64,000 nucleotides of DNA from NCBI GenBank assembly GCA_044230345.1, contig JBGARF010000035.1, positions 60,403 to 124,402 on the forward strand, given 5' to 3'. Origin of the DNA: Limisphaerales bacterium (GTDB lineage Bacteria; Verrucomicrobiota; Verrucomicrobiia; Limisphaerales; JADJPG01). The position numbers were made by a program, and so were the translations under genes. Shown here piece by piece: positions 18,641 to 44,896 of this stretch. The notes under the pieces were generated by a model. The model had not been told where the DNA came from and did not search any database. It saw only the letters and a program-made list of their open reading frames with translations. Each line of letters starts with the position of its first letter. Within the stretch, counting starts at the first letter, position 1.

Positions 18641-18657
18641 ACCAAACACCATGAAAA
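18542..18657 (+). promoter_or_regulatory. conserved 5' leader of PATR gene 1, with 14-bp palindrome GAGACCTTGGTCTC
   Basis: Block tacgcccaaagtccctccggcggagaccttggtctcattgt (18542-18582) and block gcagcgcacacactgcacgcaagaaccaaacaccatgaaaa (18617-18657) recur upstream of the paralog at 22076-22116 and 22151-22191. Perfect palindrome at 18564-18577. Confidence 0.4.
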
Positions 18658-22075: not shown

Positions 22076-22191
22076 TACGCCTAAAGTCCCCCGCGAAGGG
22101 ACCTTGGTCTCATTGTTCGGGGAGTGCGCCAGGGATTAAGACCAACCCATGCAACGCACACACTGCATGAAGAAAGCAAATACCATGAAAA
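22076..22191 (+). promoter_or_regulatory. conserved 5' leader of PATR gene 2 (paralogous to 18542-18657)
   Basis: tacgcctaaagtcccccgcgaagggaccttggtctcattgt and gcaacgcacacactgcatgaagaaagcaaataccatgaaaa. Near-palindrome GGGACCTTGGTCTC at 22098-22111. Small hairpin gtccc/gggac at 22086-22102. Confidence 0.4.
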
Positions 22192-30251: not shown

Positions 30252-33200
30252 TCAGAGCTTCAGCTGCAGCGCAATTCTGAAGAACTGCGCCTCGCCGGAA
30301 TTGGGCAGGACGACCCGATAGAGCCCGCCGCCGAGATGAACCGGCGTAATCGGGATCGTCGTCGGCTTCTGCCTCAAGTCCGCCGTCGCCTGAAGGGAAA
30401 ACTGCAGGCGATCAGCATAAAGGGGAGAGGCGAGCCACGTCGCCGCCATGGTCTTGCCCGTGCCGGGCGCGCCAGCACCGCCCGCGCCGCCGGCGCCATC
30501 GATGGGAACTTCCTCCACGTGCAACGTCGGCAGAGTCAACGCCGCGATCGGAACCGCAGGAGCACCGCGCCGATCGGTTGGATCGCTCCCTTCCCACATC
30601 TCCTGCAGGTTGGAATAACCGTCGCCATCGGCGTCATCGAAGGGATCAGCACCCAGCCCCCCGAGTAGCGCCATTTCCCAAGTGTCGATAAGGAGATTGC
30701 CGTCCGCATCGCCATCGGACCGGACCGGAACCGCTTCGAGCGAGACGGCGAGCACTTCGACGTTAAGTCCGGCGCAGGTGGTACTGATAACATCGGGCCG
30801 GCCGACGACCTCGACGAGCGCCCCCGGTTGGAGTTGGAAGGTGTCGGGGAAATCGAACGCGCCGCCGCCGAGGGCGAACAGGTTGACCGGGGTGGACGCC
30901 AGGTCCGCGGTCTCCAGCGTGGTGCAGGCACTTCCGATGGAATCCGGCCGCACTCGCAACGTGAGGTTGGTCACGGGCCGGCTGCCGAGTTGCTGCATCA
31001 CGGAGTGGACACCCGCGGCGGCATTGGCCAGCAAGGCAGGTGGAAAGCTGCCCGCTGCGATGTAGTTGGAGTGCACGATGCCGTCGCGGATGAAGTCACG
31101 CAGCACGTCGAGCGGCGGCCGGTAGAGGCCCGGAGCGGCGTTGTTCGAGACGCTGGAGACGCGATAGATTTCGCGAGCCACCGTAAGCAAGGCCTGCACT
31201 TGCGGGCTCGGGGCTTGGAGGACGAGCGTTTCCAGCGAATGATACATCTGGCGCAGATCGTAGGCGGGCCGCTGGACATCGCCGTGGGCCAGCAGTCCCC
31301 GCGCGTCGTCATCCAAAATCTGCCGTCCGGCATCGGCGGGGCGAAAGGGAAACAGGGTGAGATTGCTCCGGCTTGGGGATGCGGCGGCAAGGGCAGCACG
31401 CAAACGAGCCTCGAGCAGCGCAGCCGCGGCGGTTTGCGTCACCGTGATGTTCTGGGCACGAACCTCGTTGGTCGCATTGCCGTAGGCGAGCTTGGCAGCG
31501 GTCACCCAGTTCAACGCCTCGGCGTTGAGCACGCCCACTGCCCCGCCATAGAGGTACGGCACGGTGATGGGAGGAAGGATTGGCGATGGCAGGAGGGCGA
31601 CGAGTTCGCGCCCGATCCGGGTGTCGGCGGACGGAGTGAAGACGTCGAAGTGCGGATCAGTGGCGGCGACGAGGAGAGGCTGTGCCGGATGAATGAACAC
31701 ATTCGAGGCCGCCGCGGAAACGCCGATCGGATGTCCGACGCTGGCTGCGGCGAGCAGAGCCCCCGACCCGTCAAAGACGCGGACGCGCGACCCGCCCCGG
31801 GCGAAGGTTTCCGTGCCGGTCGTGCCGTCGAACGGTCGTGGTGTGAGGATCCAGTCCACGGCCGTGTGTTGCTCGTAGCCGGCGGTCGGTGGTTTGCTGG
31901 CCGCGTTGGCGGGGGAAGTGTTCTTCAGCAGTTCCTCCAGATCCGAAGCGCCATCACCGTCGGCATCGCTGCCGCTGCGGAGCGGGTCGAGGCCGTTGGC
32001 AATTTCGACGTAGTCAGGCACGCCATCGGAATCGGAGTCCAGCGTGCCAGGCCCGTCACGGAACGTGTAGATCTCCGTTTTGATCGACGTTTGGGCTGAA
32101 CCGAGCAATGCCCGCGCGCGGTGTTGGAGCGTGCTGTTCGTGAAGATTTGGACCGCTTGTCCCGCGTAGGCCAGCCAGGGGCCTTGGGCGTTCCGGCGAT
32201 ACAGCACCTGATAGCCGGGGGCGTCGACCTGAAACTGAACCGCGACGCTGCGGGCGTGAAAGCCGCCGGCGGGCTGGGCGCTGACTTGAACCACCGAAGG
32301 GCCGGAAGCGGCGCCGAGGCTGAAAATCGAAACTGCCTCGGTGTATTGGTTGGCGAGGCCGAACTGAGCTTGCGGATGACCCGCGCCAAGGTTGGCCGGC
32401 GTCGGATCATCGAGCCCGCGGGCGGCATCAGCGTATGTCTCGCTCGTCACTCCGACCTGCGGCGGGCCGCCCACGAGGGAGAAGAGCGAGGACCAATCGC
32501 CCGCATTGGCGCTGTGGAGCAGGCGCGGGTGCGGGGCGACAAAGGGCTCGAATTGAAACTGAAACACGTTCGCGCGCGCGCTCAGATCGGTCACGCTCGG
32601 CAACACGTTGTCGTGGCTGAGAACGAACGTTCCCGTGCCGGCATCGAACGCATAGCGCAACGAACGCGACGTGCGGGTGCCATTGGCGTGGCTGACGCCG
32701 AAGGTGACCGCGCCGTTGCCCGACGGTGTGGCCCCGAGAATTCGCTGTCCGTCCGGCGGGAGAAACTCTTGGCTCACCGTCGGCAGGTTGTTCCCGTCGA
32801 AGTCAAAGGCCGCCGCGCGAGCACCGTCATCAAACACGGCCACGAATCGGGCCGGCACACCGGCGGCCGCCGGCAGGGTGACGAGGGAGCGGATGGCGTG
32901 GCCGAGCGCAAACTGGTTGGTGGGACCGGCCTGAAACGTGCCCGGGATCGGCTCGGCCACCGCGTAAGTGGTGAAGTTGCTCTGCCCCGGCCGATAAACC
33001 AGGAACCTTGCGAGATTGCTGCCGCCGAAACGGCCGGCGGCGTACTCGACCCCAGCCGGCAGCGGGCCGAATTCGAGAAACGTCTCCTGCGGCCCAAGCG
33101 CGTGGCTGATCAGGCGAAGAACGTCCGTGTTGCCACGCGCCAGGACGGCGAGGACGGGCGCGGTGCCGTCGCGGAAGATGACGCGGTTGCCGCGTTCCCA

Positions 33201-33905
33201 GCGCTGCGCGATCACGTCTTCCTGCAATGAGACGAACGTCGCCCCGTTGCTGTTGCGAATGGTGGTCGCGCGATAGGAGGGCGTATTCCAGACGCTGGCC
33301 ACGACGAGGTCGTGCAGCGGGGAGTTGCCCGCGCCGCCCACCTCCATCGCGACGACCTGGTTGGGACCGACGGCGTTGATGAAGAACGTGACCGGCAAGC
33401 CGGGCTGGGCGGGATCATTGGCCGGCACGACATTGATTCGGTTGGCGGCTTCAGCCGTGAACACCAACCCGTGTGACGCCACACTGAACAGATTGCCGAC
33501 CGAGAACCCGGTGACATCCGCAATACCGCTCGCGCGAGGTTGGGTCCACCCGGGCTCGCCGTCCGGAGTTTGATACGCCACCCGATAGGCGCCGGTGACG
33601 CGATCGACGATGACGGAATCGATGAGACCATCACCGTTGAAGTCGCCGGCGGCCGCCCATTCCGCCGGGCCGTGTGGCCGGACGAACGTGTAGTCGTCGA
33701 GCGGGGCGGCAGCGAGAGGGAGGGCGGTGAGGACGAGGAGAACGAGCATGGCCAAGACATTGCGGAACGTGCTTCCGGGCTCGCCCTCACCCGCGAGGAT
33801 CGCGGGAGAGGGAGGAACTTCAGCGGCGGCGTGGTGGATTGAATCGGCGGGGAACATTGCGGTGCCCTTTTGTGAACAAGTGAAAGAATATAAAAGTGCG
33901 TTCAT
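30252..33905 (-). CDS. large exported hypothetical protein (1217 aa) with an FG-GAP/VCBS-like segment and thrombospondin-type-3-like Asp-rich Ca-binding repeats
   Basis: Hydrophobic leader MLVLLVLTALPLAAAP. AAAGDFNGDGLIDSVIVDRVTGAY (FG-GAP-like). DSDSDGVPDYVEIANGLDPLRSGSDADGDGASDLEEL and DGDADGNLLIDTWE...DPFDDADGDGYSNLQEMWEGSDPTD (TSP3-like). Alternative start ATG 33857 (MFPADS...) has AAGGG 9 nt upstream. Function unknown. Confidence 0.75.
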   Translation of the reverse strand: MNALLYSFTCSQKGTAMFPADSIHHAAAEVPPSPAILAGEGEPGSTFRNVLAMLVLLVLTALPLAAAPLDDYTFVRPHGPAEWAAAGDFNGDGLIDSVIVDRVTGAYRVAYQTPDGEPGWTQPRASGIADVTGFSVGNLFSVASHGLVFTAEAANRINVVPANDPAQPGLPVTFFINAVGPNQVVAMEVGGAGNSPLHDLVVASVWNTPSYRATTIRNSNGATFVSLQEDVIAQRWERGNRVIFRDGTAPVLAVLARGNTDVLRLISHALGPQETFLEFGPLPAGVEYAAGRFGGSNLARFLVYRPGQSNFTTYAVAEPIPGTFQAGPTNQFALGHAIRSLVTLPAAAGVPARFVAVFDDGARAAAFDFDGNNLPTVSQEFLPPDGQRILGATPSGNGAVTFGVSHANGTRTSRSLRYAFDAGTGTFVLSHDNVLPSVTDLSARANVFQFQFEPFVAPHPRLLHSANAGDWSSLFSLVGGPPQVGVTSETYADAARGLDDPTPANLGAGHPQAQFGLANQYTEAVSIFSLGAASGPSVVQVSAQPAGGFHARSVAVQFQVDAPGYQVLYRRNAQGPWLAYAGQAVQIFTNSTLQHRARALLGSAQTSIKTEIYTFRDGPGTLDSDSDGVPDYVEIANGLDPLRSGSDADGDGASDLEELLKNTSPANAASKPPTAGYEQHTAVDWILTPRPFDGTTGTETFARGGSRVRVFDGSGALLAAASVGHPIGVSAAASNVFIHPAQPLLVAATDPHFDVFTPSADTRIGRELVALLPSPILPPITVPYLYGGAVGVLNAEALNWVTAAKLAYGNATNEVRAQNITVTQTAAAALLEARLRAALAAASPSRSNLTLFPFRPADAGRQILDDDARGLLAHGDVQRPAYDLRQMYHSLETLVLQAPSPQVQALLTVAREIYRVSSVSNNAAPGLYRPPLDVLRDFIRDGIVHSNYIAAGSFPPALLANAAAGVHSVMQQLGSRPVTNLTLRVRPDSIGSACTTLETADLASTPVNLFALGGGAFDFPDTFQLQPGALVEVVGRPDVISTTCAGLNVEVLAVSLEAVPVRSDGDADGNLLIDTWEMALLGGLGADPFDDADGDGYSNLQEMWEGSDPTDRRGAPAVPIAALTLPTLHVEEVPIDGAGGAGGAGAPGTGKTMAATWLASPLYADRLQFSLQATADLRQKPTTIPITPVHLGGGLYRVVLPNSGEAQFFRIALQLKL

Positions 33906-33926: not shown

Positions 33927-36900
33927 TTACTGGATTTGGACCGGGTTGGTGGGCATGACCTCGGCAATCTCGCGCGTGTCGGGATTGAGCCGGACGAGGA
34001 AGTATTGGTAGGTGGCATCATCGACCACCGGCTGCGTGTCGAGCAGATACAACTCCCAATCGGGAGCAGACGGCGTGGCCGTGGTGGGAATCAGTCGGAT
34101 GAACGGGTCGTGGACAAACACGGCATTGGCGCCGTTGGGGGTCAGAGCGCGGTCGAACGCGATCTCTTCCATGAGCGGCGTGACCTGAATGACGTCCCGG
34201 GAAACCTCAGGGAAGGCCGCGTTCGGGATCTGTGCGCGGTAAACGACGAGCGGGAAGAGCCGGCCCTGATCGCGGGCGCTGCGATAGACATGCTCCAGGG
34301 GATCCGTGCCGCCCGCGATGGCGTTGGTCATGTTCGGCGGAAAGAGCGGCATCGTCAGGGCGCCGACCCGGATTCCGACGCCTTCAAAGCGTTGTTGGGG
34401 AAACGGCAGGAAGGCCGGGTCTGAATTGTTAAACATCCTGGCGTGAACGCGCGGGAAGTTCGTGGACGTCACGGTCGGAAGAGAACGGGCTGGCCAGGGC
34501 ACGTTGGTCAACGGCCCATTCGTCGACACCTGCCAGATGAACTGTTCCGTGTTGCTCTTCGGCCCGATGGAGCCGTCCTTGCCCACCGCGCGGATGAACA
34601 CGGCGTAGTGATTGCCCACGGTGACGTCGGCGTCGGTGGTGAAGACCGATCCGTTCCCGAAGCTGGGTCCGATGCGCCGAGAGAGGAACGTGAGCAGTTT
34701 GGGCTGGACCATCGGAACCCCGGGCAACGGCAGGCCCAACTCGACTGCATTGGTCAACGTGAGATCAGGAGACAGGCTCTTCCCGGGAGGCAGCGGGGCA
34801 CCTGCGACCCAGACTTCGAAACGCTCGATTCCGTAAGGCGGACAGAACCATTGCAGACGCATCCGGGCATTGGTGGAGGTGCCGACGGCGGTCAAGGGCG
34901 ACAGAATCGGAGTGGGGAGCGGCGCGTTGGGGCCAGTCTTGACGCAACCGATCCGGACCATGGGGCTGGCGTTCCCATGTTCGTCGAACTGTTGGATGAA
35001 GTAACAAATGTCCGAAGGTTGGGCGGGCATCGAACCATCGCAGCACATGGCCGGGGCCGCCACGGTGGCGTCAGCCTCACGCTGGCAGACCAGCGTGAGC
35101 GGGCCGTTCTCGACCCGACGATAGAACTTCACCTCCTTGGTGCCCGGCGAAAGATTGGCCGCAACACAGATCTCGTCGATGGTTCCGTCGCCATCGCCAT
35201 CGCCTTGCGGGTCATGCACCGTGCAATCGCCTCCGGGACGGACGCGACGCGATTCGATGGTGCCGGAGAACAGCACCGGACGGGTCGATCCGTCGGGCGC
35301 GGGGATGATGGTCGAACTGACGGCGAACTCCGAGACCTTGCCGTTGACGGCACCGACCCGGCAGTAAAACCGCGGGGCGAGGGCGGGAAACTGCGGGTTC
35401 TTGGGCAGAGCGAATTCGACGGTCGCGGCGTTCAGGCCGGGGACGAAGAACTGTCGGGCGATCTGGACGCGTTGGGTATTGAGGCCGGACAGATCGTAGT
35501 AAAACTCGGCCCATTCGATGGCGGGACGCAGGCGTTCCGTCGTCAGCCGAAAATGAAGCGCGTTCGTGGGCAGGCCCGGGACCGGCACGGGAGCACTGTC
35601 CCGAACGAAGCGGACGGTCGGTTCGGTGCAGGTGATCTCGAGCTCGCCGTCGCCGCCAGCCGGCCCCACCCGATCGCGGAGCACGCCGAACGCGGGCGCG
35701 CTGTGCGGGCTGCGGTTGCCGCCAGGCGCGCACGCGCCGTGATCGAGCGCGACGACCGTGTACCAGAACGTCACGCCGGCCTGGGTGGCGGCGAGGGGCG
35801 AACCGGGGCCGTTGTCGAGGTAGCTGTTGGTCGGAGATCCGGCCAGATGCGGGATCGGCCCGGCCACAAGGTTGAAGGCCGGGTCGCCCGCATGGGCGTG
35901 CATGTCGGGCAGGCTGGCCCAGCGATAGATGTAGTAGGCAGTGGTGATGTCGTTCGTGTTCGCGTTCTGATTCCAGACCACCTGGAGATGTTGCTGGGGC
36001 GCCCCGTTGTAAACATAGTGATTCAAAACGCGGACCCGACTGGGCGCCTGGGGCGGCATCCGATCGCAAATCGTGATCAACGTCCCACGGGACACGAGGC
36101 CGTCGCGTCCCAGCAGGTCTCGCGCGGTCAGGAAATAGTAAAACTGCGCGCCGTTGACGAAGTCGTTCTGGGGCTGCTGGGTGTTCGGATTGAAGCGGTC
36201 GTTCCAGTCGGAATAAAAAAACGTGCTGGCGTCCGCCGCCAGATTGAGCGCTTCCGCTTCGGTGTAGTCACGCGGCTGCAAGACCGGCAACCGATTGAGT
36301 CGATGGACGAGCGGATTGGATTGAACAGCCGCCAGCAGGGCCCCTGGGGAGGGCGGCGCAAGATGCCAGTTGTTCTGTTGGGCCAGGACGGCCGGAACGC
36401 GATAGACATTGAATCCATGCTGGAGCATGGAAAGACGCCGCAAAGCGTCCGGGGTCGACCAGCGCAGCTTGGCATTGAGGTCCCCCTTCGGCGTGACGTC
36501 CGGGACTTCAACGGGGCGGCCGGGCGCCGGCAGCACAACCGGTTGCCGGGCGCGGACCGTCGAACGACCCACCACTCCGAGATCGCGATCGTTGCCGACG
36601 TCAAAGACTCGAACCTCGAAGGTCGTGCGGGTGCCCGCCGGGCCCGGGATCAGCGCGGCGTGCGCCCAGCCAAGGCAGAGCGCCACTCCCGGATGAGTGC
36701 GCGCCATCAGCACCAGGTTCTTAAACTGATCCGGATCATCGATGGAACCGCGGATGACGGCCGACAACTTCTGGGCCAGCGGCAGCTTTGCATCGGGCAT
36801 CAACCTTTCGAACAAGCTGTTGATGGTTTCCTCGAGGTAGTTGAGATCTTGGCCGAGATGAATCGATCTTTGGAGGAGCGGCTGGATCACCGTCGGATCC

Positions 36901-37412
36901 GTTTGCACCCGCAGAATCGCCTGCCGCTCGTAGTTCGCAGTCGAGTTGGCCTCACCGGGCTTGGCGTAAACGGCAAACACGCGCGAGCGCAGCGTCGCGG
37001 GATCGCTCGTGATCCAGCAGAGGTAGGCCCAATCCCGGCTTTGGGAATCATAGGTCGTGGTGCCGGCAACGAGGATGTCGTCGCCACCAGATGCGGCCTG
37101 AATTGTCGAGGAAAGGAAAAAGAACAGGAGCGAGAGCAGAGCGGCGAAGGGGAGCAATACGATCGAGGAACCCGGCCGGAGCGCGGGTTTCCAAACCCGC
37201 AGCGCCTCGTGGCGGCGACCGGGCTGGAAGGTTCCAAGGTTGGCGGACGGTCCGACCCGCAGCGGACGGTAAGGCCGCGCTCCAAACGCGGGCGCGCCAA
37301 GCTCATTCTCTCCCCCGGGGAGAGGGAGAAAATCAGCGGCGGCGTGGTGGGGCGGACGAGCGTAGAACGCTGCGGTGCGCTTCGGCGAGAAGGTGATTGT
37401 CTGCGTATGCAT
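33927..37412 (-). CDS. large exported/anchored hypothetical protein (up to 1161 aa), possibly with FN3-like segments; 5' end doubtful
   Basis: Long ORF with coding-like composition. Hydrophobic segment IVLLPFAALLSLLFFFLSSTIQAASG at residues ~85-110. The first ~80 codons run through two REP-type palindromes (37308-37324, 37183-37200), so the real start is probably near 37205. No named family recognised. Confidence 0.7.
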   Translation of the reverse strand: MHTQTITFSPKRTAAFYARPPHHAAADFLPLPGGENELGAPAFGARPYRPLRVGPSANLGTFQPGRRHEALRVWKPALRPGSSIVLLPFAALLSLLFFFLSSTIQAASGGDDILVAGTTTYDSQSRDWAYLCWITSDPATLRSRVFAVYAKPGEANSTANYERQAILRVQTDPTVIQPLLQRSIHLGQDLNYLEETINSLFERLMPDAKLPLAQKLSAVIRGSIDDPDQFKNLVLMARTHPGVALCLGWAHAALIPGPAGTRTTFEVRVFDVGNDRDLGVVGRSTVRARQPVVLPAPGRPVEVPDVTPKGDLNAKLRWSTPDALRRLSMLQHGFNVYRVPAVLAQQNNWHLAPPSPGALLAAVQSNPLVHRLNRLPVLQPRDYTEAEALNLAADASTFFYSDWNDRFNPNTQQPQNDFVNGAQFYYFLTARDLLGRDGLVSRGTLITICDRMPPQAPSRVRVLNHYVYNGAPQQHLQVVWNQNANTNDITTAYYIYRWASLPDMHAHAGDPAFNLVAGPIPHLAGSPTNSYLDNGPGSPLAATQAGVTFWYTVVALDHGACAPGGNRSPHSAPAFGVLRDRVGPAGGDGELEITCTEPTVRFVRDSAPVPVPGLPTNALHFRLTTERLRPAIEWAEFYYDLSGLNTQRVQIARQFFVPGLNAATVEFALPKNPQFPALAPRFYCRVGAVNGKVSEFAVSSTIIPAPDGSTRPVLFSGTIESRRVRPGGDCTVHDPQGDGDGDGTIDEICVAANLSPGTKEVKFYRRVENGPLTLVCQREADATVAAPAMCCDGSMPAQPSDICYFIQQFDEHGNASPMVRIGCVKTGPNAPLPTPILSPLTAVGTSTNARMRLQWFCPPYGIERFEVWVAGAPLPPGKSLSPDLTLTNAVELGLPLPGVPMVQPKLLTFLSRRIGPSFGNGSVFTTDADVTVGNHYAVFIRAVGKDGSIGPKSNTEQFIWQVSTNGPLTNVPWPARSLPTVTSTNFPRVHARMFNNSDPAFLPFPQQRFEGVGIRVGALTMPLFPPNMTNAIAGGTDPLEHVYRSARDQGRLFPLVVYRAQIPNAAFPEVSRDVIQVTPLMEEIAFDRALTPNGANAVFVHDPFIRLIPTTATPSAPDWELYLLDTQPVVDDATYQYFLVRLNPDTREIAEVMPTNPVQIQ
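37177..37324. repeat. REP-like hairpins inside the nominal 5' end of ORF 33927..37412
   Basis: cggagcgcgggtttccaaacccgcagcg (37177-37204), same family as 30055/30134. ctctcccc-c-ggggagag palindrome (37308-37324), same family as 18082 and 18279. Confidence 0.55.
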
Positions 37413-37472: not shown

Positions 37473-40400
37473 TTAGAAATCGAGCTTCCACTTGCCTTGC
37501 TTGAAGGTGAGCGCGACGGACTGTTCGAGCTCGAGGCAGAAGGGACAGGGGCCGACCGATCCGCCGACGGTGCCCTTGGCCTTGACCGTGAGACCATCGA
37601 GGACGTTGGGATCGAGGCCTTCGAGCACGGCGGTGCCGGTGAGGTCGCCTTTGACGCCGATGAGGCAGAGGGCCTCGCCGCTGACGCCAGCATTCATCTT
37701 GGCCACAAACGTGGGGCCTTCGAGGAACACGCCGGCGCCCAGGCCGAGCCCGGCCGAGATGTTGAACAGGCAGGAGGCGGGGATGCCGATCAACTCGTTG
37801 ACGGGGATCCAGGCCTCGCCGTAGGCATAAATGCCCGTGAACGGTGGTGTGCCGAGCAGGCTGGCAACTTCGGGATCCCAAAGCCGGATGGGATCCAGCG
37901 AGCAGGTGCGACCGAAGTAAATGCCGCCGAACACATCGTATTTGTTGACCCGCATGCCGGCGGCCGCGCTGAGGTAGTTCTCGTCGGCACCGAGCGCCAC
38001 CGAAGCGCCGAGAAAGTTGATGGCGAACGCCTCGTACTCCAGCTTGCCAGTCAGTTCGAAACTGCCGCCCAAACCGCGCAGCGGAAAGCCAACGCCATCG
38101 TCATCGAAGGTGAACTTCGTTCCCACACTGGCGCGGAGCTCCGGACTGATCCAGCCGACTTGAACGTCTTCGGCTCCGAGCGTCACTTCGGTGATGGAGC
38201 CCGAGGCACCGTAGTTGCAACCGGCGGTGCCTTGCGAATCGAGTTCCTTGACCTGCAGGTAGCCGTTGAACTCAAGCGCGCTGCCGAAATCGAGTCGGGC
38301 TCGCAGATCGACACGCGCCTCCTTCAGTGAGTCGCCGTTGATGTGCGCGTAACCGTTCAGCTTGGCCGTGGCGGCCATTTGGTCGAGGGGCGCCAGCAGG
38401 CTGGTAAAGGCGTTGTTCAATTCCTCGGCCGTCTCGCCGACGACCAGACGGATGACGTTGTTCAACTCCTGGAACACCGTGTCGGTGGCCTGCCGAATCG
38501 CCGCATCGACGTCGTAGAGGCGGTGTTTATGCACGGCCTGGATTCCGGCCGTGAGCGGCAGTCCGTGGAACCGATCCTCAATCTCGCGCCGGATCAGCTG
38601 TTTGATCTCCTCCGGAGAATAGTCGTCCACCGGTGAGTCGAGGGCCAAGTCGATGCCCTGAATGAAACTGCCAAGGTCAGAGATCATCTCCGGCACGGCG
38701 GCCGTGATCTCCGGGGCGTGCGAGGTAAAGAGATCCTGCAGTTCAGCGCCCAACCCGCCGACCGGATTCGCGATGGTGGCGCGGACCTCGCTGACCGCGG
38801 TTCGCAGGTTGTTCAGAACGAGATGAATCTGGTCGAGCGTCGGGTCGGCCTCCTGGAGGATGGGCTGAACGATCTGGTCGACGAATCCGCCGGCAAACTC
38901 GAGGGCCTCGCGGTTGACCAGCAAACGCATCAACTCCGATGCGATGTGCCGGTTGCCGGCCGGGTCCTCGGCCAGAATGGATTCAATTTGCAGCACCGCC
39001 TGTTCAGCCTGAGCGAGGTAATTGGTCAGGCGCCGCATCATGCCGGGCTGGTTCAAGGCCGCGCTGGCCATTCCTTGCAGGCGATTCCTGATGTTTACCG
39101 GATCGGTCAGGAAGGCGGCGTCCACCTCAAGGCCCACGGCGTCTGGCCAACTTCCCGGGTCCAAAGGATTGTAAGCGGCAACCATGGCGTCGTAGAGCTC
39201 GTCCACCTTCGGCTGGATCGATTCGTCAAAGATCCCGCCGAAGAACGGATGCAGATCGGCCGCGAGGATCTCGTCAAGGCGTCCGAAGCCGGTCAGAAGA
39301 TCGCCGGTGAAATTCGCGCCAGCATCGGTGGCCAGGTCAATGGCCTGGTAGGCAAGGTTCGCGAGGTTGAACTGGGGCAGGCCGTCGAACTGCGCTCCGA
39401 AGGTGATCTCGGCGTTCTTGGCGCTCAGGTATTTGAGCTCGTTCTCCGTGCTCAACACCATCAGGTCCCTCACGATGGGCGCGCGGGAACGGAAGTCGCG
39501 GGTAATGGACGACCAGGTGAGCGGATAGTCGAAATCGATGATCTTGAGCCAGGTCCGTCGGGCGCGGGGATGATAGGCGTCCGTGCCGCTGTCGCGATAT
39601 TCGTTCGGCGTCCGGCCTTGGGCGTAACCTCGGTTGAGATCGTCGAAGTACGCCGCCGTGAAGAAGTTCATCCCGGCCGGCGACTCCCAACCGTGCGTGG
39701 GCCAGCCTCCGAGCAGATGGATGGGCGCGTTCGAATTACCCGTCGCGGCACTGGTCTGGAGATGAACCCGCAAATCCTCGAAGAAGGGAAGGTCCATCGA
39801 CGCGGCGATGTTCACCCAGCCGACGGCGGGGGCGTTGGTGCCCGCGTTGGCTGGAATTTGATCGTGGCCGTTGAAGTAGACGTCCGCGACCGGATTGAGC
39901 GTGTAGAACTCGTCGCGCGGACCGGCCACGCGGATGACGTTCGGGAGTTTCAGACGGGAGTCGACATCCGCGGGACCGACGGCGCGAGGGAGCAGGTTGC
40001 CGTTAGGCAGGAAGCCCAGCGTGCCAAAGAGCGTTTCCTGGACGTGAGCGATTTGCGTTCGGGCGCCAAGAGTGAGGTAGGCATTGGTGACGTTGCAAAT
40101 CTCCGCCGGATCGCGCCGGAACTGAAGCGCAAGCGCGTCGAAGCGGCCGTTCCAATAGGCGAGCGGAAGATTCGTGGCCGGATGGGCCATCGGAGCGCTC
40201 TCGATTCCGCCGAGGCAATTGAGGCGCAAGCCGGCAAACTCCAAGGTGAAATCCGATGGAAACGGCAGGTCGATCAATCCATCGATGCGCGATTGACCCA
40301 TTTGATTGTCGAGACAGTTCAGGCCGAAGTTCGCGAAGTCGAAGTGGTAACCATAAAGGCTCAGCGTGGCGGGGAAAGTGCCGGGGACAGCGTCATGAAT

Positions 40401-42815
40401 CCCGCTGACGCCTCCGCGCCGGGCGTAGTATTTCGAAATGCCTTTGAGCTGGTAGGTGCCCGTCGGCCGGCCCGCCAATGTGCTTTGGCCCTGGCGGAAT
40501 CCGTCGCTGCCGACGGCAAGGTTCATGCCGGCGTAGTCGGCAAAGCCAAGTTCGTAAGCGATCTGGTTCGGCGTGCCGGGGGCGTCGGGACGTTCCAGGT
40601 AGAGAGCGTTGGTGGCGGCCACACCAGTGTAGAGGAGCGTAGCCGGGCGATGCACGAGGGACGCGTCCGACTGGTCGCCCCGGAGGGAGTGGCCGGGCAT
40701 GTGAAAGCTGGCCTGGGTGAAAGTGGCTGCCTCGTGCGCAAAGGCGCCGAGGGAATCGATGTAGCCCCAGCGCAGTCGATGTGGCGCGTCCAGATTGCCC
40801 GCGCCCACCAATCCGCCGTCGCGCGTGAAGCGGAGCACGCCGTTCGTCGGCAGGAGGCGCATCAGCCGAGTCGTGTCGTCCGGCTGACAATCAACACCCG
40901 TGCAGCCCGTGCCGTAGTTCAGCGCCACCGGGTTCACGCCCGTCAACTCGCTGGCGCCTGACTCGATCAAATCGCCGGCAATGGCGATCGTGCCACCGAC
41001 CAGCCACTCAACGTGGGCATCGTAGGGAAAGTGCGCCCGGAAAACGCCCGGCCCGACCGACAAACCGGCGGTCAGGCGCCCGACACATTGCGGGTCAGCC
41101 AGCACGTTGACGGGCGAGGTCACCGTCAGGCCGGCGTGATAGACGCGATCATTCGATCGCTTCAGCGAACGCTGGGCGTTTTCAAGCACGCCATGCACGG
41201 CTTCGAGCCGGTTGTAGTCGTCCGACCGAACGTGAGTCGCACCGCCGGGAGGAACCGCCAGGTCGAAGCGACCTTCGGCCACCCGCCAGGTGATGGCGGC
41301 CGTTTGCCACCAGATCGGTTTGGATTCTTCCGCCACATAGATCGCGGCCGGCGGGGTGAAAACGACATCGTTGATCGGCCGAAGATTCGTGCCCAACGGC
41401 ACGGCGGTGGCCGTAAAGCTGTGGCGCAAACGGTGCCCAACCGTGTCGGAACGGTACCCAAGTCCCGTCGGCAGGTGGACGCGCAAGCCGCTGACGAGGC
41501 CTTGTGGCGTGAGCGCGGTCGGCGACACCAGTTCCATGCGGACGTTGACCACCTTGGTTGAGCCTCCCGGCGGAAGGTTGAGCGGGAGAGCACCCGCGTC
41601 CGCCTCCGCATCGCCGTTGACGAGCAGCCGGACGTTCAAATCTGTCCCGTCGCCATAGGTCACCCCCGGAAGCCCGGGGATCATTCCACTTTGCGCATCG
41701 ACGCTGAGGACGGAGTTGACGTGCGATCCGGGCGAGGTCCCAAGCCGGGGCGGATCGTTGTCGATGCTGCTGAACGTGGTCTGAAGCGCGCCGAAACGAA
41801 GATTGCCGTTGAAATGGAGAAGCTGCGCGGCGGACGACGAGGCGCTGCTGTCGGTCCGCACGCTGGCCGGGACGCCGGACTGTTCAAGGTGCGACAAGGT
41901 CGCCACCAGTCGATACCGATGATCCACGGAGTCGAGCTGAACGCCGTTGGCCGGCCGCACCCGGACGGTTCGCGTGGCGGTCTGGGCCCAGGGCGCATGC
42001 GGATTGTCAGGCGGCGGGGGCGTGTATTTGAACAGGGAGCGGTTGAAGTTCGTGGCATTGGTCGCGAGCGGAATGATTTGCCCCGTGGATTGGTCGACGA
42101 GTTGATACGAAAGCGTGATCGGCACGAGTTCAGCCGGGCCGGAACCGCCCTGGAAATTGTCGTGACGATGCAGCGTGTATTCCACCTCGGCCTCGAATGA
42201 GTTTCGATCGGGATCGGTCCGGACGGCCGTGGATTGGGTGAAGGCCACCTGATCCACCGTGCCGACGACATTGAAGCCGGGATCAGCGCTGACCAGATTG
42301 GTGAAGTGGATGAATTGCTGGGGTGAGTTCGTTTGACGATCGATTTCGCGAAGCCCGCCCGGCACAAACAGCCGCAGCTCGACCGTATATCGATCGTCCG
42401 GGTCCAGGCGCGTGCTGGGGCGGAGCGCAGCAACATTGGTCCGGGAGACGCTTGCGCCGGCGGCGACACCGAAGGTGTTGGTCAGGTTGTAGGTGGCATC
42501 CGGATTGGACGTGCCCGTGGAATCGAGGATCGGGTGAGGGACTCCCTGGGAGTTGAGCAATCGGAAGCGAAGGTGATAGGTGGTGGCCAGGACCGCGCCG
42601 TCCGGATTCGTGGTGCGGACGCGACTCTGCACCAGCAGATGCTCGCGGTTGTGGGCCGGGTCAAGCGTGTTGGCGTCGGCGTCGATGACGTACCCGGTGT
42701 AATTGGTGTTTTGCAGGCCCTGGATGCCGTGCGTAAGCGCGCCTTGGACCGGGCGCGCGGTGGCGACGATTCCCGTGAGGAGCGCCGTCGACAGTAAAAC
42801 TCGCATTGCCTTCAT
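37473..42815 (-). CDS. giant secreted hypothetical protein (1780 aa): signal peptide, long beta-rich N-terminal part, ~300-aa helical region, beta-rich C-terminal domain ending ...KWKLDF
   Basis: MKAMRVLLSTALLTGIVATARPVQG signal peptide. Helical stretch around ...LDEILAADLHPFFGGIFDESIQPKVDELYDAMV...LNNLRTAVSEVRATI...IRQATDTVFQELNNVIRLVVGETAEELNNAF. The last ~300 aa have an alternating-hydrophobic beta pattern and a terminal Phe. No family recognised. Confidence 0.8.
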   Translation of the reverse strand: MKAMRVLLSTALLTGIVATARPVQGALTHGIQGLQNTNYTGYVIDADANTLDPAHNREHLLVQSRVRTTNPDGAVLATTYHLRFRLLNSQGVPHPILDSTGTSNPDATYNLTNTFGVAAGASVSRTNVAALRPSTRLDPDDRYTVELRLFVPGGLREIDRQTNSPQQFIHFTNLVSADPGFNVVGTVDQVAFTQSTAVRTDPDRNSFEAEVEYTLHRHDNFQGGSGPAELVPITLSYQLVDQSTGQIIPLATNATNFNRSLFKYTPPPPDNPHAPWAQTATRTVRVRPANGVQLDSVDHRYRLVATLSHLEQSGVPASVRTDSSASSSAAQLLHFNGNLRFGALQTTFSSIDNDPPRLGTSPGSHVNSVLSVDAQSGMIPGLPGVTYGDGTDLNVRLLVNGDAEADAGALPLNLPPGGSTKVVNVRMELVSPTALTPQGLVSGLRVHLPTGLGYRSDTVGHRLRHSFTATAVPLGTNLRPINDVVFTPPAAIYVAEESKPIWWQTAAITWRVAEGRFDLAVPPGGATHVRSDDYNRLEAVHGVLENAQRSLKRSNDRVYHAGLTVTSPVNVLADPQCVGRLTAGLSVGPGVFRAHFPYDAHVEWLVGGTIAIAGDLIESGASELTGVNPVALNYGTGCTGVDCQPDDTTRLMRLLPTNGVLRFTRDGGLVGAGNLDAPHRLRWGYIDSLGAFAHEAATFTQASFHMPGHSLRGDQSDASLVHRPATLLYTGVAATNALYLERPDAPGTPNQIAYELGFADYAGMNLAVGSDGFRQGQSTLAGRPTGTYQLKGISKYYARRGGVSGIHDAVPGTFPATLSLYGYHFDFANFGLNCLDNQMGQSRIDGLIDLPFPSDFTLEFAGLRLNCLGGIESAPMAHPATNLPLAYWNGRFDALALQFRRDPAEICNVTNAYLTLGARTQIAHVQETLFGTLGFLPNGNLLPRAVGPADVDSRLKLPNVIRVAGPRDEFYTLNPVADVYFNGHDQIPANAGTNAPAVGWVNIAASMDLPFFEDLRVHLQTSAATGNSNAPIHLLGGWPTHGWESPAGMNFFTAAYFDDLNRGYAQGRTPNEYRDSGTDAYHPRARRTWLKIIDFDYPLTWSSITRDFRSRAPIVRDLMVLSTENELKYLSAKNAEITFGAQFDGLPQFNLANLAYQAIDLATDAGANFTGDLLTGFGRLDEILAADLHPFFGGIFDESIQPKVDELYDAMVAAYNPLDPGSWPDAVGLEVDAAFLTDPVNIRNRLQGMASAALNQPGMMRRLTNYLAQAEQAVLQIESILAEDPAGNRHIASELMRLLVNREALEFAGGFVDQIVQPILQEADPTLDQIHLVLNNLRTAVSEVRATIANPVGGLGAELQDLFTSHAPEITAAVPEMISDLGSFIQGIDLALDSPVDDYSPEEIKQLIRREIEDRFHGLPLTAGIQAVHKHRLYDVDAAIRQATDTVFQELNNVIRLVVGETAEELNNAFTSLLAPLDQMAATAKLNGYAHINGDSLKEARVDLRARLDFGSALEFNGYLQVKELDSQGTAGCNYGASGSITEVTLGAEDVQVGWISPELRASVGTKFTFDDDGVGFPLRGLGGSFELTGKLEYEAFAINFLGASVALGADENYLSAAAGMRVNKYDVFGGIYFGRTCSLDPIRLWDPEVASLLGTPPFTGIYAYGEAWIPVNELIGIPASCLFNISAGLGLGAGVFLEGPTFVAKMNAGVSGEALCLIGVKGDLTGTAVLEGLDPNVLDGLTVKAKGTVGGSVGPCPFCLELEQSVALTFKQGKWKLDF

Positions 42816-42895
42816 TTGGTGTTCGATCGTTTTCGTGGAGCCGGGTTGGGCTCACGGGAGGTTTAAGAAGAAGTTTTGAAAGGTAACAAAAAGGG
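42705..42895 (-). repeat. copy A of ~190-nt duplicated segment (promoter/5' UTR plus first ~38 codons of the giant gene)
   Basis: Aligns base-for-base with 43770-43963. By hand count the non-coding ~100 nt are about 88% identical. The coding-derived 78 nt are 57/78 identical. Shared AT-rich block gttttgaaaggtaacaaa. Confidence 0.8.
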
Positions 42896-42906
42896 AAGTC
42901 AGAGAG

Positions 42907-43749
42907 TCACTGAATCAGTGAGTGAGGACCCTGGCCCGAGTCGCAAAGGAGTGGCTTTTTCTGGTATTGAGCGGGGATGGACACGATCGGCTCCGGCAGT
43001 TGCGCTTCGACCCTGCGACGGCCCACGACGCGGACGTAACCGAGATGGTTACCGGAGTCGGCTTCCAGCGCTCTAATCCCTGTTGCGTTGTCGGGCGCAA
43101 CCAAGCGGAGCCAATCCAGCCAACGCTGAAACCCATCGGGAAGCGCGTCGGCCACTTCGATGTCCATGATGCCCGTCCGCCCCCAGTGCCGCCGCCACCA
43201 GTTCGCGGAATGCAGGCTCCACGGCTGCTCCTCGGACCACCACTCCCGCAGATGCGCGGGCACCGGGCCCTCCATCTCCCGCATAAGACCCGCCTGAGCG
43301 ATTCCGATCCGGCCTTCTGGTTTGATGAACCGGGCGAGGTAATTGAGGTAGGTGTCGTCCGTTCCGTAGTAGACAAAAGAGTCAATGGACACGATGGCGT
43401 CGAAGAAACCCGCGGCAAACGGCAGGGCCCGCGCGTCCGCGCGGATCGGAAAAACATCATCCCCGACTCCCGCATCCCGGACGCGTTGAAGATTCTCCGA
43501 GGGGTCGAACCACAGATCGGTGGCCCAGACGCGAACGCCGAATTCGCGGCACAGAAAGATCGAGGACATCGCCCGGCCGCAGCCGAGATCCAGGACCCTC
43601 ATGCCAGGCTGCAAATGCATCGCTTCCGTGAGCCACTCCGCCAGCCAAAGCGGATTTGCTCCTCCACTGGCGCCCGCCCGGATCCAATCGGGGTGATATC
43701 GCAACGAGCGAGGGAATCGCTCCGAAGTGAGTTGATGGTCGTGGCTCAT
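42907..43749 (-). CDS. class I SAM-dependent methyltransferase
   Basis: 280 aa. Motif I VLDLGCGRAMSSIFL, acidic loop VWATD, motif post-I/II FDAIVSIDSFVYYG, IKPEGRIGI. No signal peptide. Confidence 0.85.
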   Translation of the reverse strand: MSHDHQLTSERFPRSLRYHPDWIRAGASGGANPLWLAEWLTEAMHLQPGMRVLDLGCGRAMSSIFLCREFGVRVWATDLWFDPSENLQRVRDAGVGDDVFPIRADARALPFAAGFFDAIVSIDSFVYYGTDDTYLNYLARFIKPEGRIGIAQAGLMREMEGPVPAHLREWWSEEQPWSLHSANWWRRHWGRTGIMDIEVADALPDGFQRWLDWLRLVAPDNATGIRALEADSGNHLGYVRVVGRRRVEAQLPEPIVSIPAQYQKKPLLCDSGQGPHSLIQ

Positions 43750-43880
43750 GGCGTGGCCGCTTTGCAGGTGGTGTTTTGCAGACCTCGGCCGCCGTGAGTA
43801 AGCTTGCCTCGGACGGGGCGAGTGGTGCCGATGCTCCGTGCGAGGGGAGCCGTCGACAGAAAAATTCGCATTGCCTTCAT
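43746..43880 (-). CDS. 44-codon leader ORF derived from the 5' end of the giant gene; translationally coupled to the methyltransferase
   Basis: MKAMRIFLSTAPLARSIGTTRPVRGKLTHGGRGLQNTTCKAATP versus giant-gene N-terminus MKAMRVLLSTALLTGIVATARPVQGALTHGIQGLQNT. Its TGA (43746-43748) overlaps the methyltransferase ATG (43747-43749). Too short to be in the supplied ORF track; translation is unproven. Confidence 0.4.
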   Translation of the reverse strand: MKAMRIFLSTAPLARSIGTTRPVRGKLTHGGRGLQNTTCKAATP

Positions 43881-43963
43881 TTGGTGTTCGATGGTGTTCA
43901 CGAAGCCGGTTTTGGCTTCACTGGAGGTTTAAGCAGAAGTTTTGAAAGGTAACAAAGAGAGGG
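43770..43963 (-). repeat. copy B of the ~190-nt duplicated leader segment
   Basis: See copy A. Contains the same cattgccttcatttggtgttcgat start region and aggtttaag.agaagttttgaaaggtaacaaa block. Confidence 0.8.
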
Positions 43964-44158
43964 CCGAAGGCTCGCGCGCGGTAAACCTCAAGCCCTGGTC
44001 CGGGTCCCGTCATCACTCGCTTACTCACTAACTCACCCGCTCACTCAATTCCCCAATGCCCGGTTGCGGACGGTCGCAAGTGCTGGTTTCCCCGCTTTTT
44101 CCCTCTTCCATCGAATGCTCCCGTCTGGTCTTCTGGAGTCCTGTCGGACCGATGCCCC

Positions 44159-44896
44159 ATGAGTGACGAAGCGAAACCGATTTTTGCCAGCACGCACTGG
44201 AGCGCGGTGCTGCGGGCGGGGAGTTCAAGCTCGCCGGAGGCGCGAGAGTCGCTGGCGGAATTATGTCGCACCTACTGGTATCCGCTCTACGGCTACGCAC
44301 GCAGTGCCGGCTTGGATGTGCCGGAAGCGGAAGATTTAACCCAAGGATTCTTCGGCAAATTGCTGGAAAAGAACTATCTGGGGGTCGCCGATCGGCGGCG
44401 CGGACGGTTCCGATGGTTCCTGCTCACCGCGTTCAAGTGTTACCTCGCGAATGAATGGGATCGGTCCCAGGCCCAGAAACGGGGCGGCGGCCAGGAGATC
44501 GTGTCTTTCGATGGCGTATCCGCCCAGGAACGCTACCGGTTGGAACCGGAAACATCGGCTAGCCCGGACCAACTCTATGACCTGCGCTGGGCCGAGGATC
44601 TCCTGGCGCGAGCGAAGGAACAGGTGCGAGACGAATATGAAGGGCCAGCCGACGACAGTCGGAAGCGGAAGTTCATCCAGTTGGCGCAGTATCTCCCCGG
44701 CGGAGACGCGGTGATGAGCCATGCCGAACTCGGGGCGTCTCTCGGGATCAGCGAGGCGGCGGCCAAACAGGAGGTTTACCGATTGCGCAAGCGGTTTGGC
44801 GAGCGCTTGCGCGAAGCCGTGGCTGAAACCGTGGCGCACCCTGATGACGTAGACGACGAGATTCGATACCTGATCGACATCGTCTGCCGGCGGTAG
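44159..44896 (+). CDS. ECF-type sigma-70 family RNA polymerase sigma factor; no adjacent anti-sigma gene
   Basis: 245 aa. THWSAVLRAG...LAELCRTYWYPLYGYARSAGLDVPEAEDLTQGFFGKLLEK (region 2) ...RFRWFLLTAFKCYLANEW...; C-terminal region 4 HAELGASLGISEAAAKQEVYRLRKRFGERL. Confidence 0.85.
   Translation: MSDEAKPIFASTHWSAVLRAGSSSSPEARESLAELCRTYWYPLYGYARSAGLDVPEAEDLTQGFFGKLLEKNYLGVADRRRGRFRWFLLTAFKCYLANEWDRSQAQKRGGGQEIVSFDGVSAQERYRLEPETSASPDQLYDLRWAEDLLARAKEQVRDEYEGPADDSRKRKFIQLAQYLPGGDAVMSHAELGASLGISEAAAKQEVYRLRKRFGERLREAVAETVAHPDDVDDEIRYLIDIVCRR

What the first reader, a model, noticed from the sequence alone, without database searches (positions are those of the whole stretch)
42705..43963. The methyltransferase is bracketed by two ~190-nt copies of the giant gene's promoter, 5' UTR and first ~38 codons, creating a coupled 44-codon leader ORF
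Segments 42705-42895 and 43770-43963 align without large gaps. Copy A is the true start of the 1780-aa gene (MKAMRVLLSTALLTGIVATARPVQGALTHGIQGLQNT...).

Copy B encodes MKAMRIFLSTAPLARSIGTTRPVRGKLTHGGRGLQNTTCKAATP. Its TGA overlaps the methyltransferase ATG (ATGA at 43746-43749).

By hand count the non-coding half is about 88% identical. That half includes the AT-rich block gttttgaaaggtaacaaa, which is unusual in this GC-rich DNA. The coding-derived half is only 57/78 identical. So the putative regulatory part is the better conserved part.

The duplication would place the methyltransferase and the giant protein under the same promoter logic. Alternatively, it marks insertion of the methyltransferase into the 5' end of the giant gene by a duplicative event. 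No transposase or integrase is present.
Basis: seen in the sequence. Interest (0 to 1): 0.75.

Follow-up and report, generated by a model that had tools for sequence, protein, structure and literature searches.

The report
Duplicated promoter-leader drives a captured methyltransferase
A soil Limisphaerales bacterium carries a second, diverged copy of the promoter-like block, short leader and first 38 codons of a giant secreted-protein gene in front of an inserted methyltransferase gene; this is a small, fairly ordinary case of regulatory rewiring.

Summary
Window 42704-42893 and 43769-43959 are 191 nt at 82% identity (blastn E 2.6e-50), and they are the only two copies in the window.

Copy A is the native upstream region and start of the 1780-aa gene. 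Three orthologous loci with DNA keep a 29-nt AT-rich block, GTTACCTTT-N6-TTC-NN-CTTAAACCT, followed by a small hairpin. All sit next to a divergent ECF-like sigma gene.

Relatives without the methyltransferase (MT) carry one block. The closest relative, a Limisphaerales MAG, has the MT and two blocks, so the MT is a lineage-specific insertion that received its own copy. The block is not a dispersed repeat: it occurs twice in that MAG and in no other reference genome.

The 44-codon ORF and its ATGA overlap exist. However, its signal peptide is degenerate, and the closest relative has no such ORF because its leader runs straight into the MT start. It is best read as a remnant that at most supplies translation initiation.

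MT homologues float between unrelated contexts, one of them an integron-like cassette array. The window MT is closer to those than to the relative's MT, so the insertion history is unresolved.

Interest is modest.

The parts
43925..43953 (-). Copy B of the conserved AT-rich block GTTACCTTTCAAAACTTCTGCTTAAACCT. It is a candidate promoter now upstream of the methyltransferase.
   Evidence: The block is 31-33/33 identical to copy A and to both copies in L002.
43902..43919 (-). Copy B leader hairpin, GAAGCC-AAAACC-GGCTTC.
   Evidence: Minimum free energy -10.8 kcal/mol, z -2.6.
43866..43892 (-). Copy B translation-initiation region. These 27 nt around the ATG are identical to those of the giant gene.
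43746..43880 (-). 44-codon ORF (MKAMRIFLSTAPLARSIGTTRPVRGKLTHGGRGLQNTTCKAATP*). It is a remnant of the giant gene's first 38 codons plus 6 junction codons, and its TGA overlaps the MT ATG.
   Evidence: It is absent from L002.
42907..43749 (-). Class I SAM-dependent methyltransferase, 280 aa, intact and full length. Its ancestral stop TAG has become CAG, which adds 8 codons.
42859..42887 (-). Copy A of the conserved block GTTACCTTTCAAAACTTCTTCTTAAACCT. This is the native candidate promoter of the giant-gene operon.
42835..42855 (-). Copy A leader hairpin, GTGAGCC-CAACCC-GGCTCCAC.
   Evidence: Minimum free energy -11.3 kcal/mol, z -3.5.
37473..42815 (-). Giant 1780-aa protein of unknown function with a Sec-type signal peptide. 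It is the first gene of a conserved three-gene set.
33927..37412 (-). Second large gene of the set (1161 aa, no family match).
30252..33905 (-). Third large gene of the set (1217 aa, bacterial thrombospondin-type-3 repeats).
44159..44896 (+). Divergently transcribed 245-aa ECF-like sigma-70 family protein. It is conserved next to the giant gene in all five close orthologous loci examined.
26384..29899 (-). Ser/Thr kinase with a WD40 propeller. In three relatives this type of gene sits directly beside the sigma-like gene.

Best explanation
Copy A is the native cis-regulatory region of a conserved operon of three giant secreted proteins. It consists of a 29-nt AT-rich block (most likely the promoter), a roughly 40-nt leader that begins with a small hairpin, the translation-initiation region and the signal-peptide codons.

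An MT gene was placed between the divergent ECF-like sigma gene and this operon, in a lineage that includes the window organism and one sequenced relative. The MT family is mobile, and in at least one genome it travels as a likely promoterless, integron-like cassette. The inserted MT carries a duplicated copy of the block and leader (copy B), so the MT is now read under the same control as the giant operon.

In the window, copy B also carries 38 decaying codons of the giant gene. These codons no longer encode a signal peptide. At most they let ribosomes load at the retained initiation region and re-initiate at the overlapping ATGA.

What is shown: the duplication, the insertion, constraint on the block in all copies, the absence of the ORF in the relative, and purifying selection on the MT.

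What is inferred: that the block is a promoter, that the neighbouring sigma-like protein reads it, and that translation is coupled.
For: - The repeat is real and limited to two copies.
- Orthologous loci without the MT (L004/L005, L006) have one block directly upstream of the giant gene. The MT-bearing loci (window/L001, L002/L003/L008) have two.
- The block is 31-33/33 identical in all four copies, although window and L002 differ by dS about 1.0-1.1 in the sigma gene, the MT and the giant genes.
- A hairpin sits at the same position in all six copies, with one compensatory pair.
- A degenerate block pattern hit only the L002 MAG contig, twice, among 185,579 reference genomes. It gave only one chance hit in JGI metagenomes.
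- The sigma-like gene is adjacent and divergent in all five close orthologous loci. It matches TIGR02937 over its full length (E 2.6e-6).
- The MT is intact and under purifying selection (omega 0.15).
- MT homology to family members starts exactly at the ATG, so the MT brought no upstream region of its own.
- One close homologue lies in an array of small same-strand genes separated by attC-like repeats.
Against: - No sigma-70-type promoter is predicted in either copy, and there are no transcription data.
- The sigma-like protein scores below the curated cut-offs (27 vs 42.9 bits). A single-sequence structure model was unusable (pLDDT 48).
- No second target of the block was found, so no regulon supports the sigma link.
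- Hairpin support rests on six sequences and one compensatory pair.
- The MT gene tree does not fit one simple ancestral insertion. The window MT is closer at synonymous sites to MTs in unrelated contexts than to the L002 MT (same-amino-acid codon identity 0.59-0.71 vs 0.53).
- The within-genome contrast of 87% vs 78% identity is not strong on its own.
Confidence: 0.62

Rival explanations
1. One reading: the 44-codon ORF is a selected leader or upstream ORF. Its translation is needed for, or regulates, MT translation through the ATGA overlap.
For: - The ORF is open and ends in ATGA on the MT start.
- Its 27-nt initiation region is identical to the giant gene's.
- No Shine-Dalgarno-like sequence lies before the MT ATG (read).
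- Copy B's coding-derived part has diverged less than neutral drift since the window-L002 split would predict. About 16 of 114 sites are specific to it, while dS is about 0.5 per lineage.
Against: - The ORF is absent from the only other MT-bearing relative.
- The signal-peptide core is broken.
- wA-wB differences are evenly spread over codon positions (7/8/10).
- ATGA is common at this family's start codon, and one of three frames would give the overlap by chance.
- Open frames are easy to keep in 64% GC DNA.
Confidence: 0.2
2. The two genomes captured an MT independently. Each capture was a single duplicative insertion into the same sigma-giant slot, which would imply recurrent selection to put this MT under this control region.
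For: - The 5' junctions differ: 38 codons plus 19 nt in the window, against a leader fused to the ATG in L002.
- The window MT is closer at synonymous sites to MTs from unrelated contexts than to the L002 MT.
- The two MTs are sisters in only 26% of NJ bootstraps.
- The slot accepts other genes: a Peptidase_M50 gene sits there in one relative.
- The window copies A and B are more alike than the L002 copies A and B outside the block.
Against: - It requires the same gene family, the same slot and the same kind of promoter duplication twice.
- The window MT is the second-best of about 6,979 hits to the L002 MT, and the L002 MT has no closer relative anywhere.
- Both MTs uniquely start MSH.
- MT dS between the two genomes (1.12) equals that of the flanking genes.
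- Quartet sites in the leader are too few to decide (3 vs 2 vs 1).
Confidence: 0.25
3. The conserved block is not a promoter. It is a protein operator or an RNA element within a longer transcript, and the giant operon is read through from upstream.
For: - There is no consensus promoter.
- There is no terminator between the MT and copy A.
- The block is conserved as one 29-nt unit that includes spacer positions.
Against: - Homology between copies, and conservation across loci, begin exactly at the block. Whatever drives transcription of both genes therefore has to lie inside the unit.
- In L004 only about 72 nt separate the block from the divergent sigma start.
- There is no Rfam match.
Confidence: 0.15
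4. Copy B is a neutral scar of a duplicative insertion and has no present function.
For: - The coding-derived part is decaying.
- The leader ORF has been lost in L002.
Against: The block in both B copies is 31-33/33 identical to the A copies across two genomes with near-saturated synonymous divergence. Meanwhile the adjacent L002 copy-B leader has drifted to about 50% identity.
Confidence: 0.08
5. The unit is a dispersed repeat or a miniature mobile element.
For: It has two copies in direct orientation and an AT-rich core.
Against: - There are only two copies in the window.
- There are only two in the closest MAG and none in other reference genomes.
- Orthologous loci have a single copy at a fixed position.
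- There are no terminal inverted repeats and no transposase.
Confidence: 0.02

Closest known systems
Regulon expansion by promoter duplication or promoter capture in bacteria (general evolutionary mechanism; from established knowledge)
   Same: A pre-existing cis-regulatory region is copied in front of a newly arrived gene, so that gene joins an existing transcriptional programme. The regulatory part stays conserved while the co-duplicated coding part decays.
   Different: Here the copy includes the leader, the initiation region and 38 codons. The recruited gene belongs to a family seen as an integron-like cassette. The event left a direct repeat of about 190 nt bracketing the gene, and no mobile-element gene is present.
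Kinase-associated ECF sigma factor groups (ECF43, ECF59-62, ECF217, ECF267, ECF283; PMC7826278, PMC13147305)
   Same: The neighbour is a small sigma-70 family protein with no co-encoded anti-sigma factor. A Hanks-type Ser/Thr kinase is conserved nearby, and divergently arranged putative target genes follow.
   Different: The window protein scores below the curated ECF cut-offs. It keeps an acidic AEDLTQ region 2.2 instead of the QTTA motif described for ECF43 (PMC13147305). Its target promoter is unknown, and the block does not match the usual AAC / CGT ECF pattern as I recall it.
Translational coupling through overlapping stop and start codons (ATGA) and termination-reinitiation
   Same: The upstream ORF stops on the start codon of the downstream gene. 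The upstream ORF carries a proven initiation region (that of the giant gene), and the downstream start has no obvious ribosome-binding site.
   Different: The upstream ORF is a gene fragment and not a conserved partner gene, and it is missing in the closest relative.
Integron gene cassettes (promoterless ORF plus attC)
   Same: A close MT homologue (P0042; 80% aa, 83% nt) lies in an array of small same-strand ORFs. These are separated by repeats of about 90 nt bounded by GCCTAAC...GTTAGGC-type motifs. Homology to the window MT is limited to the ORF.
   Different: The window MT has no attC remnant, no integrase nearby and no cassette boundaries. Integrase-mediated insertion does not produce a 190-nt target duplication.

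Membership tests
Dispersed repeat / MITE | Many copies scattered in the genome | tested here: not met
   There are two copies in the window, two in the closest MAG and none in other GTDB representative genomes. The window organism's full genome was not available.
Dispersed repeat / MITE | Terminal inverted repeats and target-site duplication | tested here: not met
   No inverted repeats bound the unit, and the flanks are unrelated.
Bacterial promoter (sigma-70 housekeeping type) | TTGACA-N16-18-TATAAT-like hexamers | tested here: not met
   The scan found no site in 42600-44300. The TTG upstream of the block is not conserved in L006.
ECF-type promoter read by the adjacent sigma | Conserved two-part motif with fixed spacing upstream of the genes next to the sigma gene | tested here: met
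   GTTACCTTT and CTTAAACCT lie 11 nt apart and are invariant in six copies from four genomes.
ECF-type promoter read by the adjacent sigma | Transcription start downstream of the motif, dependent on that sigma | not testable with these tools
   This needs 5' end mapping or in vitro transcription.
ECF sigma factor (the 245-aa neighbour) | [quoted passage not shown] | tested here: inconclusive
   TIGR02937 matches model positions 2-163 of 165, E 2.6e-6, but 27.1 bits is below the 42.9 cut-off. PF07638 scores 18 vs 21.1 bits. The structure model was too poor to use.
ECF sigma factor (the 245-aa neighbour) | Kinase-associated groups: conserved Ser/Thr kinase nearby and no anti-sigma factor | tested here: met
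   A kinase-WD40 gene is adjacent in L006 and in two JGI loci, and lies nearby in the window and L002. No anti-sigma family hit was found among the neighbours.
Translationally coupled leader ORF | Stop codon overlapping the downstream start | tested here: met
   ATGA at 43746-43749.
Translationally coupled leader ORF | Conserved in relatives that carry the downstream gene | tested here: not met
   L002/L003 have the MT and the duplicated block but no ORF.
Sec signal peptide (leader ORF product) | Uninterrupted hydrophobic core of about 10-15 residues after a basic N-terminus | tested here: not met
   The longest uncharged, proline-free run is 6 residues, against 13-15 in the giant-protein orthologues. 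Maximum hydropathy is 1.16, against 2.1-2.7.
Class I SAM-dependent methyltransferase | Rossmann-type SAM-binding domain with the glycine-rich motif I | tested here: met
   Methyltransf_25, Methyltransf_11 and CMAS score above cut-offs. VLDLGCG is present and all family-invariant positions are kept.
Integron gene cassette (the window MT) | attC site downstream of the ORF, integrase or array context | tested here: not met
   Homology to cassette-borne homologues ends at the ORF. No attC-like repeat lies in the 38-nt downstream spacer, and no integrase is nearby.

The most novel reading that the evidence does not exclude
The same mobile MT family was wired to this one control region more than once (independent captures in the window lineage and in the L002 lineage). 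That would imply a specific functional tie between the MT and the sigma-controlled giant secreted proteins, for example methylation of those proteins or of a shared substrate during one response.
Probability: 0.2. Interest if true: 0.55.

Novelty: new member of a known kind. Interest (0 to 1): 0.3.

Why it matters
- It gives a clean natural example of how a gene that arrives without its own upstream region gets expressed. It borrows a copy of a neighbour's control region, the control part is then kept, and the dragged-along coding part decays.
- It defines a testable cis-element, GTTACCTTT-N11-CTTAAACCT plus a leader hairpin. This element belongs to an uncharacterised module in soil Limisphaerales: a kinase-linked ECF-like sigma gene and three giant secreted proteins, for which no promoter or function is known.
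- The value is mainly local. It is useful for annotation and for anyone studying this sigma family or these giant proteins, and it does not open a new class of system.

Tried and rejected
- **Dispersed repeat:** rejected by the window, genome and metagenome scans. The one metagenome hit, L009, is a chance match in an AT-rich unrelated contig.
- **Repeat extending upstream into the MT 3' end:** the apparent GACYCGGRCCAGGG match is not significant (P = 0.10).
- **Repeat extending past codon 38 into the MT start (junction microhomology):** not significant (P = 0.42). The MAFFT impression was an alignment artefact.
- **Known RNA family or tRNA at the locus:** none.
- **Terminator between the MT and copy A:** none on the coding strand. 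The palindrome at the MT stop has no T-run and is not conserved.
- **MT as a fusion or truncated gene:** rejected. It is full length with the family's own start.
- **Mosaic MT (partial gene conversion):** a sliding-window comparison shows the window MT is closer to 'core' MTs along its whole length, with no clear tract.
- **MT protein tree:** it does not resolve whether the two locus MTs are sisters (26% bootstrap).
- **Quartet analysis of the four leader copies:** too few informative sites.
- **Structure model of the sigma-like protein:** done from a single sequence and unusable (pLDDT 48).
- **Giant protein:** no Pfam, NCBIfam or PDB relative.
- **Integrase-type secondary-site insertion:** considered and set aside. 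It does not create a 190-nt duplication, and the GTTACC of the block is native to loci without the MT.
Full report
**1. The observation**

All genes of interest lie on the minus strand. Reading that strand 5' to 3', the order is:
- copy B (43959-43769)
- the methyltransferase (MT, 43749-42907)
- copy A (42893-42704)
- the 1780-aa ORF (42815-37473)

A 245-aa ORF is transcribed divergently from 44159. The repeat is real. The repeat finder reports it in two ungapped pieces, and blastn gives one 191-nt alignment at 82.2% identity, E 2.6e-50. Nothing else in the window comes close. Exact cores of 22 and 23 nt each occur twice, against zero expected.

The 44-codon ORF (43880-43746) and its TGA inside the ATGA of the MT start are as described. 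The non-coding part is 68/78 identical (87%). The first 114 coding-derived nt are 89/114 identical (78%).

The unit has sharp ends. Similarity stops at TTTGTTACC on the 5' side (P = 0.10 for the best upstream match) and at CAAAACACCA, codon 38, on the 3' side (P = 0.42).

**2. What the neighbours are**

The MT is a class I SAM-dependent enzyme (Methyltransf_25/11 and CMAS above cut-offs). Its closest solved relatives are small-molecule methyltransferases.

The giant protein and the 1161-aa protein after it match no family or solved structure. The third, 1217-aa protein has bacterial thrombospondin-type-3 repeats.

The divergent 245-aa protein matches the ECF sigma superfamily model over its whole length, but below the curated cut-off (TIGR02937, E 2.6e-6, 27 vs 42.9 bits; PF07638, 18 vs 21.1 bits). 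A Ser/Thr kinase with a WD40 propeller lies downstream of the three large genes. No transposase or integrase is nearby.

**3. Orthologous loci**

The giant protein has only 39 relatives in the protein collection. I examined five close loci:
- L002/L003: Limisphaerales MAG GCA_044229355.1, giant protein 84% identical
- two JGI contigs: giant proteins 68% and 65% identical, gene tables only, no DNA
- L004/L005: giant protein 68% identical
- L006: giant protein 63% identical

All five share the set sigma-like gene (divergent), giant gene, a gene of about 1100 aa and a gene of about 1200 aa. In three of them the kinase sits beside the sigma-like gene.

The slot between the sigma-like gene and the giant gene holds no called gene in L004, L006 and one JGI locus. 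It holds a Peptidase_M50 gene in the other JGI locus. It holds an MT in L002, as in the window. The MT is therefore a lineage-specific insertion into a permissive slot.

**4. The conserved element**

All loci with DNA carry GTTACCTTT-N6-TTC-NN-CTTAAACCT 38-44 nt before the giant gene's ATG. A 5-9-bp hairpin starts 6-10 nt after it. The stem changes between GAGCC/GGCTC, GAAGCC/GGCTTC, GAGGCC/GGCCTC and AGGCC/GGCCT. That gives one fully compensatory pair in the automatic count, which is suggestive but thin.

Loci without the MT have one block. The window and L002 have two, one before the MT and one before the giant gene.

Window and L002 differ by dS about 1.0-1.1 in every gene of the locus, so neutral sites are close to saturation. 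Even so, the 33-column block is 31-33/33 identical among all four copies. The L002 copy-B leader just downstream has drifted to about half identity. Both copies of the block are therefore under purifying selection, and this is the strongest argument that copy B is functional.

**5. Not a dispersed repeat**

The degenerate 21-specified-base pattern hit a single contig among 185,579 reference genomes. That contig is the L002 MAG contig, hit twice, at its two locus copies. In JGI metagenomes it hit one AT-rich unrelated contig, which on inspection is a chance match. A looser pattern finds nothing else in the window or in any fetched locus. No Rfam family or tRNA is present.

**6. The leader ORF**

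In L002 the duplicated leader runs directly into ATGATGAGCCAC, the MT start. There is no giant-gene-derived ORF. The ORF is thus not conserved in the only other genome where it could be.

Its product has lost the hydrophobic core of the signal peptide. The longest uncharged, proline-free run is 6 residues, against 13-15 in four giant-protein orthologues. Its differences from copy A fall evenly on the three codon positions (7/8/10).

MT family genes often begin ATGA, because the second codon starts with A. The overlap therefore needs only the right one of three frames.

Two points favour some use:
- The 27 nt around the ATG are identical to the giant gene's initiation region.
- The MT start has no obvious ribosome-binding sequence.

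Termination-reinitiation is a reasonable, untested way for the MT to be translated in the window organism.

**7. Where the MT came from**

The family is very large, with about 7,000 proteins found in each of two searches (E at most 1e-5, at most 1e-60). The listed top hits are about 70-81% identical and typically 270-272 aa. The window MT is full length, uses the family's own start and keeps every invariant residue. Its TAG stop has become CAG, adding eight codons.

Homologues sit in unrelated neighbourhoods. One of the closest (P0042, 83% nt identity) lies in an array of small same-strand genes. These are separated by repeats of about 90 nt bounded by GCCTAAC...GTTAGGC-type motifs, and at least one of them folds as a long imperfect hairpin (z -3.7). 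This looks like a chromosomal integron cassette array.

Homology between the window MT and these genes begins at the ATG and ends within a few bases of the ancestral stop. The MT thus brought no upstream region with it. From established knowledge, integron cassettes are usually promoterless, which fits a need to borrow one.

**8. History, unresolved**

For one ancestral insertion:
- Both genomes show the same slot and the same two-block layout.
- MT dS between the two genomes (1.12) equals that of the flanking genes.
- Both MTs begin MSH, unlike the others.
- The window MT is the second-best of about 6,979 hits to the L002 MT, which has no closer relative anywhere.

Against simple vertical descent:
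- At codons with the same amino acid, the window MT shares the codon with MTs from unrelated contexts in 59-71% of cases. With the L002 MT the figure is only 53%, and the saturation value is about 38-41%. This holds along the whole gene.
- The two MTs are sisters in only 26% of bootstraps.
- The 5' junctions differ.

The candidate histories are an ancestral insertion later remodelled (allele replacement or conversion, plus loss or gain of the 38 codons) or two independent captures. Informative sites in the leader are too few to decide. A one-step route that yields an insert bracketed by a local duplication is template switching during replication or repair. That is an inference, and no junction microhomology was found.

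**9. Mechanism proposed**

The block is most likely a promoter for an alternative sigma factor. The sigma-like protein encoded next to it is the obvious candidate, and a Ser/Thr kinase may control it. This follows the pattern of kinase-associated ECF groups that lack anti-sigma factors (PMC7826278; PMC13147305). The window protein keeps an acidic AEDLTQ segment and not the QTTA motif described for ECF43.

The hairpin would lie at the very 5' end of the transcript, where such structures commonly stabilise mRNA (established knowledge). Copy B then makes the MT a co-regulated member of this small regulon.

No sigma-70-type consensus is present, which is compatible with an alternative sigma. The promoter role, the sigma assignment and the coupling are all inferences.

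**10. Verdict**

The 'same promoter logic' and 'duplicative insertion' readings are supported by comparative evidence. The 'coupled leader ORF' is best seen as a decaying remnant with, at most, an adapter role. This is a new instance of a known evolutionary process in an uncharacterised module, and its interest is modest.

Noticed in passing
L016:300-7010 (JGI Ga0620594_0000664): An array of at least 12 small same-strand ORFs with unrelated functions, including the MT homologue P0042. They are separated by two families of repeats of about 90 nt bounded by GCCTAAC/GCCTAGC ... GTTAGG motifs. It looks like a chromosomal integron cassette array. No integrase was looked for.
   Followed up: partly
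L016:8793-9621: Three tandem copies of a 167-nt unit (99% and 76% identity), plus a 62-nt sub-repeat present four times, in an 829-nt non-coding stretch.
   Followed up: no
window 42907-42936: The MT's ancestral stop codon (TAG in relatives) reads CAG here. The protein therefore runs on for eight more codons (GPHSLIQ) into the former downstream spacer.
   Followed up: yes
window 42907-42921: A perfect 15-nt palindrome, TCACTGATTCAGTGA, covers the MT stop codon. It has no T-run and is absent from L002.
   Followed up: partly
window 43996-44040: A run of CTCAC/CTCACT-like motifs (tcatcactcgcttactcactaactcacccgctcactcaat) lies in the spacer between copy B and the sigma-like gene. A short CTCACTCAC also lies just upstream of copy A.
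   Followed up: no
window 18651-21980 and 22149-26330: Two adjacent large ORFs (1109 and 1393 aa) have near-identical N-terminal regions (LLVALSMALS...ATYTWTGAGFFG..DYLWSNPNNWAEL). They appear to be a tandem paralogue pair.
   Followed up: no
window 48691-52053 and 52176-59516: Two adjacent large ORFs (1120 and 2446 aa) both start with a signal peptide followed by (I)ARWNLGEND. They carry LamG/Ig domains and, in the longer one, CotH/LTD domains. They appear to be another paralogue pair.
   Followed up: no
JGI 3300041967 contig carrying P0003 (gene table only, no DNA): A Peptidase_M50 gene occupies the same slot between the sigma-like gene and the giant gene that the MT occupies in the window. 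The slot has therefore accepted different genes in different lineages.
   Followed up: partly
window 42703-42879 and 43776-43952 (+ strand): Each repeat copy also carries a mechanical 58-aa TTG-start ORF antisense to the leader, ending at the TAA inside the block. It is probably meaningless in GC-rich DNA.
   Followed up: no
window 44159-44896; L002, L004, L006 orthologues: The sigma-like protein is very conserved across loci; blocks such as RRRGRFRWFLLTAFKC and ISEAAAKQEVYRLRKRFGE are shared in the translations (87% identity window vs L002). It has an STHWSAV N-terminal extension and a long linker.
   Followed up: partly
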